Source of the DNA: an uncultured Bacilli bacterium
Lineage (GTDB): Bacteria; Bacillota_I; Bacilli_A; RF39; UBA660
Direction: 5' to 3'
DNA: 64,000 nucleotides
Assembly: GCA_934120015.1 (NCBI GenBank)
Contig: CAKOTD010000001.1
Span: 836-64,835 of the forward strand
Positions 60,088-63,597 of the stretch are shown here, piece after piece (positions within the stretch are counted from its first letter, which is position 1; every line of letters starts with the position of its first letter). The position numbers and the translations under genes were made by a program. Below the pieces are notes generated by a model. The model had not been told where the DNA came from and made no database searches. It worked only from the letters and a program-made list of their open reading frames with translations.

Positions 60088-63000
60088 CTAACAATTACCA
60101 TTACAACATGCATAACTATTTGCACAACTATTATAACAACTACTTGCACCACCAGTACTAGCACAATTAGCATTACATCGTGCAAAGGAATCAGCACAAC
60201 TGCTTCCACCACCACCACTACATGAACCTGTTGGAGAGGATCTAAATGTTCTTGATATCTCATTACCATCAACATCTCTACATACTGTATAAACACTACC
60301 AGATAATGAACCATTTGTACAAGTAACAGTATTTTCATCCTTACAGGTGATAGTCTTCATTGTAAATCCAAAAATTACATCATTACTTACCTTATTAGAA
60401 TTATTTGTACAATTTGCTGTAATAGATATTGGTATAGCATCAGTTATTGTACCACCATATTCAGAACAATCATATAAATTTGCTGATTCACAATAATCTT
60501 TACAACATGTTTTATATGTAGTTTCAGCTGTTGCAGTGCAATCACCCCTACCGCCTGAAGCTGATGAACAAGCATTACCTGCATTTTCAGCTCTTGCATC
60601 ACATTCACTTGGACAAGTAAATACTACATCTGAGGCCTGAATCGTAAAGGTATTGGTTGTTCCAGATTTAATTACACTTGTTCCTGCTTTAGCATTCCAT
60701 GAATATGATTTTACTCCAGATGATCCTGCACTACATCCTATTGTTATTGTATATGTTTCATCTTTAGCTACTATTGCACCATTTGTTACATTTGTTCCTG
60801 AACTTGTCTTTACAGTTATTGTTGCTGTTGGCGGTGCTGTATTTATTGTATATGTTTGATAATACCATCCCGAACCATTAACAGGGCTTTGATTTTGTAT
60901 ATTTCCTGCCTTATCATATACTTTTGCATATATTATCCATGAACCATCACTATCAAGTGGTACATCATAGTATGATGATGTTGTTGGATTTGCATTATTT
61001 GATATTGACTGAATTACTCCGTCTTTATATACATGTACATACATATATGAATAATTTGTGTCATTTGCTGTTACTCTTACGGTCTGTGCTGTATCATAAC
61101 TTCCTCCTGCTACACTATAACTTACTGTTGGCTTTGTTGTATCTACATCCCATACTGTTAGATGATTTCTACCTGCTGTTCCTATACTTATATTTCCTGC
61201 ATTATCTCTGGCAATTATATGTGGTATCCATCTTCCATCTTTTAACATTGGAATACTCCATTGATTATTCCCAATCGATACTGCATTATTTACCCATGTT
61301 CCATCTTTCCAAATAGATATTTGATTATTACTTGATAGACCACTTCCTCCTGTGTCTGTTAATGTTAGAGTTGGGGTTATTCCACTACTAAAGAAGCCCA
61401 TATAATATGATCCACCATACAAATCTGTTAATGATTGAGCATTATAATTATAGGATATTGTTGGAGCTATTTTATCTATTGAAATTATATGTGTTGGAGT
61501 TAGACCGCCAACATTTCCAGCTTTATCAACCGCTCTAAACCATATTCCTGTTCTAGTCGAATTTTCAATAGTAAAATTATTACCCGCAATATCAACAAAA
61601 GTTAATCCATTATATGTCATTTGATAATGGTCTACTCCACTTTCCGTGTCTGTAGATGATAAATATGCTGTTACTGATTGATTTGTCCACGTATCTGATT
61701 CATATATTTGCCCATCGGCAGTTTTATATACTACTGTTGTTAATGGCCCTGTTGTATCTATCATAGTTACATTCTTTGACGAACTTATTTCATTTATTCC
61801 ATCACTTACTTTTGCTTCTATATTTCCATTACTCTTTAATACTATTTTATCTGTTTTTCCACTTACTTCATACCATGTTCCATTTGTTATTATTGTTCCA
61901 TCTTCTTTTGTTGCTGTTCCATTTATTACTCTATATTTTTTTGTATAATTTCCGTCTGGATATGTTATTGTTACTATTTTACTTTGTGTCCATACTCCTG
62001 AATCTGTTACTGTAAAACTTGGTATCTTTATTTCTCCTGTTGTTCCTACTGTACTTGCTTCTGTACTATTTCCTGCTTCATCTGTACATTTTACTTTTAA
62101 GTTATATGTTCCTGTCTTCAAATTACTAAATGTATATATATTATTTGTTCCTGTTTTATAATTTAATCCATTATCACTACTATATTCATAACTTTTTATT
62201 CCTATGTTATCTGTGCATGTTGCTTTTACTTCTATCGAATTTGTTGTTGTATTTGTTATCTCTAATGTTGCTGTTGGTTTCTCTGTATCTATTTTATCTA
62301 TTATGAACATATATCCTTCTGATATATTCCCTACTAAATCTTTACTATATGCATAATATGTTCCATTACTATTTATTTCATATTTTCCTGTTTTTCCTGT
62401 TATACTTTCCCATGTACAATTTTCACTACTATTTTCGTTTGTTATACAATAATGGGTTACTCCTGATACTGCACTTCCATTTTCTTCTATATCATCTACT
62501 TCTATTGTTATTTCATCTTTTTTACTATATCCTTCATTTATATCTTTTACACTTATTATTGGTTTTGCATTATCTATATTTATTACTTTCTCTGTTTTAT
62601 CTACTACATTTGTTCCATCTGTTATTCTTCCTATTATAGTTGTATTATTTTCCGTTATTTTTATTATTCCTGTATATTCCCTAAATTCTCCATCATTTAG
62701 ACTATACATTATTTTAAATCCTTCTAACATTATTCCATCATAGCTTATTGTTGCTTCTTTTTCTTGTGCTAATCCTTTTGGCGTTACTTCTATTATTGGA
62801 GCCTTTAGTATTTCTGTTTTTACTTCTTTTATTTCTGATTCTATTGTTTCTATATTTTCTCTACAATTTTCTTTTTCTGTTAATCCATTATATACTCTTA
62901 CTTTTATTTGATATTTTGTATTGAACAACAAGTCTTTATATTCATATATATTATTTTGAGGATTTTCAGCTGTCTGCCATGTTATTCCTCCATCTTTACT

Positions 63001-63534
63001 ATATTCATATTTACTTATTCCACTTTCACTATCTTTGGCATTTACTACTATTTTTATTCTATTTAAAGTCACCGTATAACTAAAATCTACACTTTCTGGT
63101 GCAGTCATATCACATAGTACTCCTATATCATCACAATTTCCGCTCTTTACCTTTACTTTTGTATCATTATATGTCTTATATGCACACCATTTATTATTTG
63201 TATATCCTATTGCCTGGTTTCCTTCCCTATCTACATATGCATCTCCTACACCTGTTATTTCTCCTATATGCTTTGTACCTATTGGTTCTTCTTCAAAATA
63301 TATTTTTTGATCCTTTATTATATACATATCATTTTCTAATAATGATGTATATCCACTACTTGCCCTATCTAATTTTATTGTATTTAATATTCCTACTGCA
63401 CTTTGTCTAAATGCGGATTTTTCTGCTCTTCTTGTTATCCCATTTACTATTGGTACTGTTATTAATGCGATTATTGCTAGTACTACTATTACTGTTAATA
63501 ATTCTATTAATGTAAATCCTTTATTTTTATTCAT
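60088..63534 (-). CDS. Giant type IV pilin-like surface protein (1148 aa): prepilin N-terminus, multiple Ig/FN3-like modules and a Cys-rich C-terminal tail
   Basis: N-terminus MNKNKG/FTLIELLTVIVVLAIIALITVPIV (class III signal, Glu at +5). Repeated modules carry SG(I/V)xxYEYS and D.AGN motifs. The last 175 aa contain 21 Cys by my count. GAGGAG RBS. Confidence 0.85.
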   Translation of the reverse strand: MNKNKGFTLIELLTVIVVLAIIALITVPIVNGITRRAEKSAFRQSAVGILNTIKLDRASSGYTSLLENDMYIIKDQKIYFEEEPIGTKHIGEITGVGDAYVDREGNQAIGYTNNKWCAYKTYNDTKVKVKSGNCDDIGVLCDMTAPESVDFSYTVTLNRIKIVVNAKDSESGISKYEYSKDGGITWQTAENPQNNIYEYKDLLFNTKYQIKVRVYNGLTEKENCRENIETIESEIKEVKTEILKAPIIEVTPKGLAQEKEATISYDGIMLEGFKIMYSLNDGEFREYTGIIKITENNTTIIGRITDGTNVVDKTEKVINIDNAKPIISVKDINEGYSKKDEITIEVDDIEENGSAVSGVTHYCITNENSSENCTWESITGKTGKYEINSNGTYYAYSKDLVGNISEGYMFIIDKIDTEKPTATLEITNTTTNSIEVKATCTDNIGIKSYEYSSDNGLNYKTGTNNIYTFSNLKTGTYNLKVKCTDEAGNSTEASTVGTTGEIKIPSFTVTDSGVWTQSKIVTITYPDGNYTKKYRVINGTATKEDGTIITNGTWYEVSGKTDKIVLKSNGNIEAKVSDGINEISSSKNVTMIDTTGPLTTVVYKTADGQIYESDTWTNQSVTAYLSSTDTESGVDHYQMTYNGLTFVDIAGNNFTIENSTRTGIWFRAVDKAGNVGGLTPTHIISIDKIAPTISYNYNAQSLTDLYGGSYYMGFFSSGITPTLTLTDTGGSGLSSNNQISIWKDGTWVNNAVSIGNNQWSIPMLKDGRWIPHIIARDNAGNISIGTAGRNHLTVWDVDTTKPTVSYSVAGGSYDTAQTVRVTANDTNYSYMYVHVYKDGVIQSISNNANPTTSSYYDVPLDSDGSWIIYAKVYDKAGNIQNQSPVNGSGWYYQTYTINTAPPTATITVKTSSGTNVTNGAIVAKDETYTITIGCSAGSSGVKSYSWNAKAGTSVIKSGTTNTFTIQASDVVFTCPSECDARAENAGNACSSASGGRGDCTATAETTYKTCCKDYCESANLYDCSEYGGTITDAIPISITANCTNNSNKVSNDVIFGFTMKTITCKDENTVTCTNGSLSGSVYTVCRDVDGNEISRTFRSSPTGSCSGGGGSSCADSFARCNANCASTGGASSCYNSCANSYACCNGNC

Positions 63535-63565: not shown

Positions 63566-63597
63566 AGTATACCCCCCCCCCCCTCGACAATTGTCAA
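63566..63597 (-). promoter_or_regulatory. Candidate promoter of the giant pilin-like gene with a G12 tract in the spacer
   Basis: The minus strand reads TTGACA (63597-63592), then attgtcga plus G12 (a 20-nt spacer), then TATACT (63571-63566), which ends 31 nt upstream of the ATG. Confidence 0.5.
63572..63583. repeat. Homopolymeric C12 (plus strand) / G12 (coding strand) tract
   Basis: Counted directly: nine C at 63572-63580 plus three C at 63581-63583. It is unique in this AT-rich window. Confidence 0.95.

What the first reader, a model, noticed from the sequence alone, without database searches (positions are those of the whole stretch)
60088..60617. Cys-rich (21 Cys in 175 aa) Gly/Ser/Ala/Asn tail at the C-terminus of the giant pilin-like protein
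After the last Ig-like module the sequence changes abruptly. It begins CPSECDARAENAGNACSSASGGRGDCTATAETTYKTCCKDYCESANLYDC and ends GSCSGGGGSSCADSFARCNANCASTGGASSCYNSCANSYACCNGNC. That gives about 12% Cys, against roughly 1% in the preceding 970 aa, and includes CC doublets and C-x3-C / C-x4-C spacings. Such density is very unusual for an extracellular protein of an anaerobic Firmicute. It suggests a disulfide-knotted or metal-binding tip domain, or a substrate for thioether-type cross-linking. This segment is also visibly more GC-rich than its surroundings.
Basis: seen in the sequence. Interest (0 to 1): 0.62.

Follow-up and report, generated by a model that had tools for sequence, protein, structure and literature searches.

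The report
Cysteine-stapled cap on giant pilin
The last 175 residues of a 1148-residue pilus-type surface protein from an uncultured gut bacterium form a real, conserved, fast-evolving cysteine-rich end module, most likely held together by disulfide bonds; it matches no described domain, but is one of many such caps on giant pilin-like proteins in this bacterial group.

Summary
Residues 974-1148 (window 60091-60615, minus strand) carry 21 Cys in 175 aa, against 9 in the preceding 973. This is the most Cys-dense stretch in the genome's proteome.

It is not low-complexity drift:
- The tail is intact in two syntenic orthologues and in one paralogue lineage.
- 19 of 25 Cys columns are invariant, against 43% of the other columns.

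The tail has three parts: a confidently predicted helix-loop-helix, a small beta module, and a second Cys/Gly/Ser/Ala/Asn-rich helix-loop-helix. CX3C spacing is about 3.4-fold enriched, whereas CXC and CX2C are depleted and no His is present. This favours disulfide-stapled helical hairpins (the "twin CX3C" pattern of alpha-hairpinins) over metal binding.

Pfam, NCBIfam, PDB sequence search and Foldseek all found nothing. The family is extremely rare: two clusters among 1.84 billion representatives.

The host is an uncultured reduced-genome gut Bacilli with type IV pilus machinery and at least 11 prepilin-like genes. It has no DsbB or VKOR, only thioredoxin-fold exported proteins.

About a quarter of related giant pilins end in other, unrelated Cys-rich tails.

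Verdict: an undescribed cap module on a modular type IV pilin, probably a variable adhesive or recognition tip. The disulfides and the function are inferred, not shown.

The parts
60088..63534 (-). Complete gene for the 1148-aa modular prepilin-type protein (stop codon 60088-60090)
   Evidence: ORF listing and translation. Pfam N_methyl 1.9e-7 and Ig-like Big_13/Big_7 hits. NCBIfam TIGR02532 7.2e-7 and OmpL47-type beta domain 1.2e-20.
63115..63534 (-). Class III signal peptide (MNKNKG|FTLIELL...) plus pilin module, aa 1-140, including the Cys117/Cys134 pair
   Evidence: Cys117 is present in 75 and Cys134 in 88 of 117 prepilin-type homologues. This block is 85% identical in DNA to the 5' end of the paralogue on G000:C24.
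60616..63114 (-). Stalk of Ig/FN3-like modules, aa 141-973
   Evidence: Pfam Big_13, Big_7, Y_Y_Y and BNR hits and NCBIfam OmpL47-type domains. Divergence is mosaic: dS vs P0002 is 0.02-0.03 for aa 1-600 and 0.23 for aa 601-900.
60466..60615 (-). Tail part A, aa 974-1023. Cys-rich helix-loop-helix with 8 Cys: CX3C ... C ... C ... CCX3C ... C
   Evidence: AlphaFold2 predicts helices at tail residues 4-19 and 27-44, block pLDDT 78-91. Invariant in 4 sequences: C1, P2, C5, A12, G13, C16, C26, A30, C38, K39, C42, E43, C50. dS vs P0002 is 0.66.
60223..60465 (-). Tail part B, aa 1024-1104. Small beta module with 4 Cys (GGTI..IPISITANCTNN ... CTNGSLSGSVYTVCRD..G.EISR)
   Evidence: Predicted strands at tail residues 89-126, pLDDT 56-86. 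It is the best conserved part of the tail: 86% identity to P0002. BLASTP to the end of P0021 gives E 1e-5 over tail residues 64-122.
60091..60222 (-). Tail part C, aa 1105-1148. Terminal Cys/Gly/Ser/Ala/Asn-rich segment with 9 Cys and a twin CX3C motif (CNANC-x8-CYNSC)
   Evidence: Predicted helices at tail residues 140-152 and 158-167, but with low confidence (pLDDT 36-60). The twin CX3C motif is kept in P0002 and P0003 although identity is only 41-47%.
63566..63597 (-). Promoter-like TTGACA - 20 nt spacer containing G12 (63572-63583) - TATACT upstream of the gene
   Evidence: Read from the sequence. The G run is 12 here, 11 in the P0002 locus (L010) and 10 in the P0003 locus (L096).

Best explanation
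The tail is the distal cap of a modular type IV pilin-like surface protein.

[quoted passage not shown] A stalk of Ig/FN3-like modules, about 830 residues long, projects outward. The last 175 residues fold into a compact three-part knob: an alpha-helical hairpin, a small beta module, and a second alpha-helical hairpin.

The Cys residues sit mostly in CX3C pairs on facing helices. They most likely form intrachain disulfide 'rungs', as in twin-CX3C proteins and alpha-hairpinins. The expected pairs in hairpin A are roughly C974-C1015, C978-C1011 and C989-C999. In hairpin C they are C1120-C1137 and C1124-C1133. Such rungs would make a small, protease-resistant scaffold.

The non-Cys surface of this scaffold changes quickly between strains. 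The tail is therefore probably the ligand- or partner-recognising tip, or the antigenically variable tip, of the protein.

Shown here:
- the composition;
- the conservation of Cys columns;
- the CX3C and twin-CX3C enrichment;
- the predicted helix hairpins;
- the pilin signal and the pilus machinery in the genome;
- the mosaic divergence along the gene.

Inferred, not shown: that disulfides form, their connectivity, tip display on a pilus, and adhesion.
For: - **Real and conserved.** The tail is intact in P0002 (Hadza gut metagenome) and P0003, both in syntenic loci. It is also intact in the own-genome paralogue on C24 and its orthologue P0004. Thirteen Cys are invariant across the four sequences. 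Among the three orthologues, 19 of 25 Cys columns are invariant against 60 of 141 other columns (Fisher P = 0.002).
- **Spacing.** CX3C gaps number 22 against 6.4 expected in this family, and 26 against 7.9 in seven unrelated Cys-rich pilin tails; 0 of 500 shuffles reach these values. CC, CXC and CX2C fall below expectation.
- **Twin CX3C.** The pattern CX3C-X4-14-CX3C occurs 13 times in 11 tails against 0.46 expected.
- **Structure prediction.** AlphaFold2 gives a helix-loop-helix for tail residues 4-44 with pLDDT 78-91. The invariant small residues A12, G13 and A30 lie on the same i+4 stripe as the Cys.
- **Known analogue.** In alpha-hairpinins, two CXXXC motifs on antiparallel helices pair Cys1-Cys4 and Cys2-Cys3 (PMC7191063).
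- **Pilin context.** N_methyl/TIGR02532 hits; PilB-type ATPase; prepilin peptidase; PilC-type platform protein.
- **Other likely disulfide pairs in the family.** A Cys pair in the pilin module is conserved in most homologues.
- **Modular pilins are established.** They carry functional modules and are probably tip-located (PMC8179133).
- **Fast, mosaic divergence.** dS is 0.66-0.72 in the two hairpins against 0.02-0.03 in aa 1-600; tail dN/dS is 0.6-0.8.
- **Candidate redox partners.** A secreted thioredoxin-fold domain (CPHC) is fused to a 6-helix membrane domain with invariant Cys. A second anchored Trx-like protein has CGFC.
Against: - No DsbB, VKOR or DsbA-type protein above cut-off was found in the roughly 90%-complete genome.
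- The organism is a gut anaerobe, so an oxidant for 10-11 disulfides is not obvious.
- The exported proteome is generally Cys-poor: 34% of exported proteins have no Cys. It shows only a weak, non-significant bias toward even Cys counts (53 even vs 45 odd, against 307 vs 378 for cytoplasmic proteins; P = 0.10).
- The Trx-membrane fusion looks CcdA/DsbD-like, which is normally a reducing or isomerising pathway. It is also a widespread housekeeping-type gene (at least 7972 homologues), not specific to Cys-rich pilins.
- An exact mirror-symmetry test of Cys positions was significant only for P0002 (P about 0.01).
- The paralogue lineage has an odd total number of Cys (29).
- There is no direct evidence that the protein is displayed on a pilus or that it binds anything.
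Confidence: 0.6

Rival explanations
1. The tail is an extracellular metal-binding (Zn, Fe-S or Cu) thiolate cluster domain rather than a disulfide scaffold. In the anoxic gut the Cys would stay reduced and chelate metal, either for structure or for metal capture.
For: Cys density is very high and includes two CC doublets. The genome lacks DsbB and VKOR. The habitat is anaerobic. The same genome attaches a metallothionein-like Cys-rich extension (CSC, CTC, CCC motifs) to GrpE, so Cys-rich metal-type segments do occur in this lineage.
Against: The tail contains no His. The spacings typical of metal sites (CXC, CX2C, CC) are depleted relative to shuffles, while CX3C is about 3.4-fold enriched. 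The predicted structure is regular helices and strands, not metallothionein-like coil. No Pfam or NCBIfam metal-binding family matched.
Confidence: 0.12
2. The Cys-rich segments are cross-linked by thioether bonds (sactionine, ranthionine or lanthionine type) installed by a radical-SAM/SPASM or similar maturase. This would make a RiPP-like stapled end on a large protein.
For: Two radical-SAM/SPASM proteins with no specific family assignment are encoded in the genome, at C4:44353-45198 and C16:13176-14243. The terminal segment is rich in Cys, Ser, Thr and Asn, like RiPP cores. Helical hairpins with CX3C-spaced Cys are also typical of some sactipeptides; this last point rests on my own knowledge and is a lead only.
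Against: No maturase gene lies near the pilin gene in any of the three syntenic loci; the only radical-SAM gene there is a MiaB-type UPF0004/TRAM enzyme. There is no leader-peptide architecture, since the putative substrate is the C-terminus of a 1148-aa exported protein. NCBIfam gave no SCIFF or other RiPP hit for the segments. Cys occur on both helices in mirrored CX3C pairs, which fits Cys-Cys pairing better than Cys-to-backbone links.
Confidence: 0.05
3. The Cys mainly serve intermolecular bonding. They would give covalent disulfide exchange with partner proteins (other caps, host mucin Cys domains, other cells) or cross-linking of fibres into a matrix, rather than purely internal stapling.
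For: The tail has an odd Cys number (21), and the paralogue lineage has an odd total (29). Some Cys columns vary between orthologues (6 of 25). Cys-rich cross-linked surface layers exist in the same genome's gene set as a CotZ-like protein.
Against: The total Cys count is even in the three orthologues (30, 30, 32). Most Cys are invariant and lie in paired CX3C motifs that imply intramolecular partners. No partner protein has been identified; the downstream lipoprotein has only its lipobox Cys.
Confidence: 0.1
4. The tail is non-functional low-complexity drift, or an assembly or frameshift artefact at the 3' end of the gene.
For: The terminal 44 residues are compositionally simple (Cys, Gly, Ser, Ala, Asn) and poorly conserved in sequence (41-47% identity). 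No known domain matched.
Against: The frame is open and the tail is present in three independent assemblies plus a paralogue lineage. Cys columns are selectively conserved (P = 0.002). The twin-CX3C motif is kept despite sequence turnover. dN/dS stays below 1.
Confidence: 0.03

Closest known systems
Modular type IV pilins (Streptococcus sanguinis PilB with a vWA module and PilC with a lectin module; ETEC CofB); survey in Raynaud et al. 2021, PMC8179133
   Same: [quoted passage not shown] Tip display and ligand binding are proposed. The host is a monoderm. The pilus machinery genes lie elsewhere in the genome.
   Different: This protein is much larger (1148 aa, where the survey's extreme case was 860 aa), with a long Ig/FN3 stalk. 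The terminal module matches no known domain and is Cys-rich. The gene stands alone, away from pilus operons. It belongs to a repertoire of at least 11 prepilin-like genes in a 1.3-Mb genome.
Alpha-hairpinins of plants and twin-CX3C proteins (small Tim proteins of mitochondria)
   Same: Two CX3C motifs lie on two antiparallel helices joined by a short loop. In alpha-hairpinins these pair Cys1-Cys4 and Cys2-Cys3 (PMC7191063). Here the motif CX3C-X8-10-CX3C is conserved in the terminal segment, and a longer laddered version occurs in hairpin A.
   Different: No sequence or detectable fold homology was found. These are domains at the end of a giant bacterial protein, not free peptides. They carry more rungs and extra Cys (CC doublets). 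The disulfides are not demonstrated. This is a resemblance in how it would work, not family membership.
Bacillus subtilis ComGC pseudopilin stabilised by a disulfide made by BdbDC
   Same: It is a type IV pilin-like protein of a monoderm whose stability depends on an extracytoplasmic disulfide and thiol-disulfide oxidoreductases (PMC7212644 citing Meima et al. 2002).
   Different: ComGC has one disulfide in a small pilin, whereas up to 10-11 are inferred here in a cap module. No BdbC/DsbB or BdbD-type protein above cut-off is present here. Only Trx-fold exported proteins of unknown direction were found.
Phase-variable, hypervariable surface protein repertoires (e.g. Mycoplasma Vlp/Vsa-type genes with homopolymer tracts in promoters; own knowledge)
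   Same: The genome is reduced and host-associated, with many paralogous surface genes. A homopolymer (G10-12) sits in the promoter spacer and differs by one base between strains. The exposed end diverges quickly and in a mosaic pattern.
   Different: The carrier is a prepilin, not a lipoprotein. Variation affects a Cys-scaffolded cap rather than tandem repeats. Switching is not demonstrated.

Membership tests
Type IV pilin / modular pilin | Class III signal peptide: short basic leader ending in Gly, hydrophobic +1 residue, Glu at +5, and about 20 hydrophobic residues | tested here: met
   The sequence reads MNKNKG|FTLIELLTVIVVLAIIALITVPIV. Pfam N_methyl 1.9e-7; TIGR02532 7.2e-7.
Type IV pilin / modular pilin | Prepilin peptidase, assembly ATPase and platform protein encoded in the genome | tested here: met
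   Peptidase_A24 at C17:29972-30304, 7.1e-16. T2SSE at C4:27432-29186, 1.3e-129. T2SSF at C17:28633-29616, 4.9e-31.
Type IV pilin / modular pilin | Globular pilin fold after alpha-1, and incorporation into a filament | not testable with these tools
   The N-terminal module was not modelled. Only a conserved Cys117/Cys134 pair was seen. Filament incorporation needs experiment.
Alpha-hairpinin / twin-CX3C helical hairpin | Two CX3C motifs on two antiparallel helices joined by a loop | tested here: met
   CNANC-x8-CYNSC at aa 1120-1137. Thirteen twin-CX3C motifs occur in 11 tails against 0.46 expected. A helix-loop-helix is predicted, with pLDDT 78-91 for hairpin A and 36-60 for hairpin C.
Alpha-hairpinin / twin-CX3C helical hairpin | Disulfide connectivity Cys1-Cys4 and Cys2-Cys3 | not testable with these tools
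This needs a disulfide map.
Alpha-hairpinin / twin-CX3C helical hairpin | Sequence or fold homology to known members | tested here: not met
   No PDB sequence hit. No Foldseek hit with E <= 0.001 in PDB or BFVD. No Pfam or NCBIfam hit. This is analogy only.
Metallothionein / zinc-ribbon type metal-binding domain | CXC, CC or CX2C clusters, often with His ligands | tested here: not met
   Gaps 0, 1 and 2 are below the shuffled expectation: 5 vs 9.3, 2 vs 8.0, 3 vs 7.4. The tail has no His.
RiPP-type thioether peptides (SCIFF/ranthipeptide, sactipeptide) | Short leader-bearing precursor with an adjacent radical-SAM/SPASM maturase | tested here: not met
   No maturase lies in the three syntenic loci. 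Two orphan SPASM genes sit elsewhere, without a Cys-rich peptide neighbour. No SCIFF model hit.
Classical oxidative folding pathway (DsbA/DsbB or VKOR) in the host | A membrane oxidase (DsbB or VKOR) and a DsbA-type partner | tested here: not met
   PF02600: no match. PF07884: no match. PF13462: only 16.8 bits, below cut-off. The genome is about 90% complete, so absence is not absolute.

The most novel reading that the evidence does not exclude
Twin-CX3C disulfide-laddered helical hairpins may be a general, undescribed bacterial display scaffold. Uncultured reduced-genome gut Bacilli would keep repertoires of stand-alone, phase-variable giant pilin genes. Their interchangeable Cys-stapled caps would act as strain-specific adhesin or antigen tips.

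These caps would be oxidatively folded in a strict anaerobe that lacks DsbB and VKOR. The folding system would be new, built around the clade-wide thioredoxin(CPHC)-six-helix membrane fusion protein.
Probability: 0.15. Interest if true: 0.75.

Novelty: new variant of a known kind. Interest (0 to 1): 0.5.

Why it matters
RF39-like, reduced-genome Bacilli are common, uncultured gut residents, and how they attach to hosts or partner cells is unknown. A 1.3-Mb genome that keeps at least 11 pilin-like genes, several over 1000 aa, is investing heavily in surface fibres.

The Cys-scaffolded, fast-changing caps are the most plausible specificity determinants. They are therefore candidates for strain-specific colonisation factors and antigens.

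The finding also makes a question testable: how can a strict anaerobe without DsbB or VKOR fold a module with about 10 disulfides? Or are these Cys used in some other way?

Compact twin-CX3C scaffolds that tolerate rapid surface change are also of interest for protein engineering.

Tried and rejected
- **Known-domain searches on the tail.** Pfam, NCBIfam, PDB sequence search, and Foldseek against PDB and BFVD gave nothing significant.
- **Homologue searches.**
  - A profile search of 1.84 billion representatives found only the two related lineages and one spurious immunoglobulin-like hit.
  - A scan of GTDB genomes by pattern found none.
  - Sixty relatives, including three same-genus genomes, had none.
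- **Exact mirror-symmetry test of Cys positions.** It was meant as evidence for a disulfide ladder but was significant only for P0002, so I dropped it as a general argument.
- **Even/odd Cys bias of the exported proteome.** It was meant as a proxy for oxidative folding and was inconclusive (P = 0.10).
- **Functional link to the downstream GT-C-like genes (PMT_2, DUF6020).**
  - Synteny holds only in the three orthologous loci.
  - In eight other genera of the family whose loci were inspected, no DUF6020 homologue lies next to a prepilin gene. In two of them it sits beside GT2 and GtrA-like genes.
  - I therefore do not claim that the tail is glycosylated by these enzymes.
- **A regex for GspE-type ATPases.** It gave false positives (ABC transporters, FtsK, conjugation ATPases) and was replaced by HMM searches.
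- **Identity of the Trx-fusion membrane domain.** Pfam at E <= 10 and Foldseek identified only the thioredoxin fold.
Full report
**The observation**

The minus-strand ORF at window 60088-63534 encodes 1148 aa. It begins with a canonical prepilin signal, MNKNKG|FTLIELL. Pfam N_methyl scores 1.9e-7 and TIGR02532 scores 7.2e-7. Ig/FN3-like modules follow.

- From CPSEC (aa 974, window 60615) to the last residue (aa 1148, window 60091) there are 21 Cys in 175 aa, against 9 in the first 973.
- With a genome-wide Cys frequency of 1.18%, the binomial probability is 4e-15.
- This is the most Cys-dense 175-aa window among 912 ORFs of the genome.
- CC doublets (2) and CX3C spacings (5) are present.
- The tail is GC-richer than the window (35% vs 25%), but so is the whole 3' half of the gene. 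Third-position GC is not raised (8% vs 11%). The excess therefore reflects Gly, Ala, Cys and Ser codons.

**Organism and context**

The assembly is 1.31 Mb in 52 contigs, about 90% complete, with about 25% GC.

- Its RNase J is closest to MAGs labelled uncultured Bacilli, Tenericutes or Mollicutes, from rabbit, deer, mouse and Hadza human guts. One relative is Candidatus Fimihabitans, at 71% identity. This is a reduced-genome, RF39-like gut Bacilli; the order name is my inference.
- The genome encodes a PilB-type ATPase, a prepilin peptidase and a PilC-type platform protein next to that peptidase. It also has a Tad-like locus.
- At least 11 ORFs have prepilin N-termini. Several exceed 600 aa, and several sit at contig ends.

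The gene in question stands alone. In this genome and in the two orthologous loci the order is: DUF2513, giant pilin, 155-aa lipoprotein, PMT_2-like GT-C protein, DUF6020, DcuC, RNase J.

DUF6020 homologues occur in eight other genera of the family. In the loci inspected, none lies next to a prepilin gene. I therefore do not link the tail to these enzymes.

**Conservation**

A word-seeded search of 5.8 billion proteins restricted to the tail found only P0002 (1161 aa) and P0003 (953 aa). A profile search of 1.84 billion cluster representatives found only two related clusters: P0003, and P0004 (1080 aa), the orthologue of a paralogue on contig C24 of the same genome. A third weak hit was an unrelated animal immunoglobulin-like repeat protein. 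Sixty relatives, including three same-genus genomes, lack the tail.

- The tail is open and full-length in all of these proteins.
- Thirteen Cys are invariant across the four sequences.
- Among the three orthologues, 19 of 25 Cys columns are invariant, against 60 of 141 other columns (Fisher P = 0.002).

It is not met.

**Anatomy**

AlphaFold2 was run on the four-sequence alignment (mean pLDDT 70). It predicts three parts:
- Part A: a helix-loop-helix at tail residues 4-19 and 27-44, block pLDDT 78-91.
- Part B: a beta module at residues 89-126, pLDDT 56-86.
- Part C: a second helix pair at residues 140-152 and 158-167, low confidence (36-60).

In part A the invariant residues are C1, C5, A12, G13, C16 on helix 1 and C26, A30, C38, C42 on helix 2. 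They form i+4 stripes of Cys and small residues, as expected at a tight helix-helix interface.

P0002, P0003 and the paralogue carry one extra Cys on each arm near the loop. P0001 lacks both. This is compatible with gain or loss of a pair, but it is a single event.

**Spacing statistics**

| Measure | Set | Observed | Shuffled expectation |
|---|---|---|---|
| CX3C gaps | four family members | 22 | 6.4 |
| CX3C gaps | seven unrelated Cys-rich pilin tails | 26 | 7.9 |
| Twin CX3C (CX3C-X4-14-CX3C) | 11 tails | 13 | 0.46 |

- For both CX3C rows, 0 of 500 shuffles reach the observed value. CC, CXC and CX2C are depleted.
- For the twin-CX3C row, P < 0.001.
- The twin-CX3C unit is kept in part C of P0001, P0002 and P0003, although identity there is only 41-47%.

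This is the motif of alpha-hairpinins. There, two CXXXC motifs on antiparallel helices pair Cys1-Cys4 and Cys2-Cys3 (PMC7191063).

An exact mirror-symmetry test of Cys positions was significant only for P0002. I do not rely on it.

**No known family**

The following found nothing for the tail:
- Pfam and NCBIfam;
- PDB sequence search;
- Foldseek against PDB and BFVD.

**Evolution**

Between P0001 and P0002, divergence differs sharply along the gene:

| Region | dS |
|---|---|
| aa 1-600 | 0.02-0.03 |
| beta module (part B) | 0.14 |
| two hairpins (parts A and C) | 0.66 and 0.72 |

- The gene is therefore mosaic, and the two Cys-rich hairpins are its most diverged parts.
- Tail dN/dS is 0.6-0.8, so it is constrained but relaxed relative to the N-terminus.
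- The promoter-like TTGACA-N20-TATACT contains a G12 run. The run is G11 in the P0002 locus and G10 in the P0003 locus.

**A recurrent theme**

A search with the whole protein returned 142 hits, 121 of which were retrieved; 117 of those are prepilin-type homologues. Of the 117, 31 have at least 10 Cys in their last 175 residues. These fall into about 19 different tail types.

- P0021 shares the beta module (BLASTP E 1e-5).
- P0023, P0115, P0015, P0033 and P0043 have other CX3C-rich ends.
- Another group ends in YTCPNGGTLSGTxC repeats.
- A same-genus genome carries a 1442-aa prepilin with yet another CX3C-rich tail.

The tail is thus one member of a set of non-homologous Cys-rich caps on giant pilins of this clade.

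**Can the host make disulfides?**

- DsbB and VKOR are absent, and no DsbA-type protein passes its cut-off.
- There is an exported thioredoxin-fold domain with CPHC, fused to a six-helix membrane domain.
  - Cys43, Cys46, Cys170, Cys253 and Cys298 are invariant in 30 homologues.
  - The family has at least 7972 members.
  - One source names a member 'CcdA/glutaredoxin'.
  - Foldseek recognises only the Trx/Grx fold.
- A second anchored Trx-like protein (CGFC) lies near the Tad locus.
- Whether either protein oxidises or reduces is unknown.
- The exported proteome is generally Cys-poor, with only a weak even-number bias.
- A Cys pair in the pilin module is conserved in most homologues.
- A precedent exists: B. 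subtilis ComGC is a monoderm pseudopilin stabilised by a disulfide that needs BdbDC (PMC7212644).

**Thioether option**

Two radical-SAM/SPASM genes exist but are unassigned and unlinked. Neither has a Cys-rich neighbour. The only radical-SAM gene near the pilin loci is MiaB-like.

**Conclusion**

The best reading (confidence about 0.6) is a disulfide-stapled, three-part cap at the distal end of a modular type IV pilin (the concept is in PMC8179133). It probably serves as a variable recognition or adhesion tip.

- Rivals that remain open: metal binding (0.12), intermolecular cross-linking (0.10), thioether cross-links (0.05).
- Effectively excluded: low-complexity drift (0.03).
- Not shown: the disulfides, their connectivity, pilus display and ligand binding.

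Noticed in passing
window 63566-63597: Promoter-like TTGACA - 20 nt - TATACT with a G12 run (63572-63583) in the spacer of the giant pilin gene. The run is G11 in the P0002 locus (L010) and G10 in the P0003 locus (L096). The paralogue on C24 has no such run.
   Followed up: partly
G000:C29:10090-10743 (outside the window): GrpE (Pfam 7.5e-51) carries a roughly 50-aa N-terminal extension packed with CSC, CTC, CCC and CNC motifs (15 Cys). It looks metallothionein-like.
   Followed up: no
G000:C8:39938-40405 (outside the window): A 155-aa protein with 19 Cys matches Spore-coat_CotZ (Pfam 4.7e-13). This is unexpected in a 1.3-Mb reduced genome. Sporulation capacity was not examined.
   Followed up: no
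G000:C2:50401-52917 (outside the window): An 838-aa protein with a signal peptide and 38 Cys, including runs of CX3C (CRDDC, CFKSC, CVSIC, CFTSC). It has no Pfam hit. It is a second kind of Cys-rich exported protein in this genome.
   Followed up: partly
G000:C4:21255-22674 (outside the window): A small thioredoxin (WCPSC) is followed by a 385-aa protein. That protein has a signal peptide, a Trx fold with CPHC, and a six-helix membrane domain with invariant Cys in helices 1 and 4 and in a loop. The family has at least 7972 homologues, mostly unnamed, in uncultured Bacilli. It is a possible CcdA/DsbD-like redox relay.
   Followed up: partly
G000, several contigs (C2:1-2101, C3:105387-end, C6:51296-end, C9:39795-end, C19:3151-5097, C24:7630-10857, C34:5210-6220 and others): At least 11 prepilin-type ORFs occur in a 1.3-Mb genome. 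Four are cut by contig ends, and their conserved 5' blocks (71-87% DNA identity) probably break the assembly.
   Followed up: partly
window 60616-61730 versus L010 and L096: The gene is mosaic between strains. For aa 601-900, dS vs P0002 is 0.23 against 0.02-0.03 upstream. P0003 lacks about 200 aa of the stalk. Module gain, loss or replacement appears to be frequent.
   Followed up: partly
L110 and L115 (G008:C3, G010:C19): In these two other genera of the family, the DUF6020 homologue sits directly after a GT2 glycosyltransferase and a GtrA-like small membrane protein. This is the layout of three-component surface glycosylation systems, and it suggests what DUF6020 does.
   Followed up: no
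G000:C21:17400-22463 (outside the window): A Tad/Flp-like pilus locus (CpaF-like ATPase, CpaE-like protein, two T2SSF-domain proteins, TadE-like pseudopilins). A membrane-anchored Trx-like protein (CGFC) lies a few kb away at C21:13997-14761.
   Followed up: no
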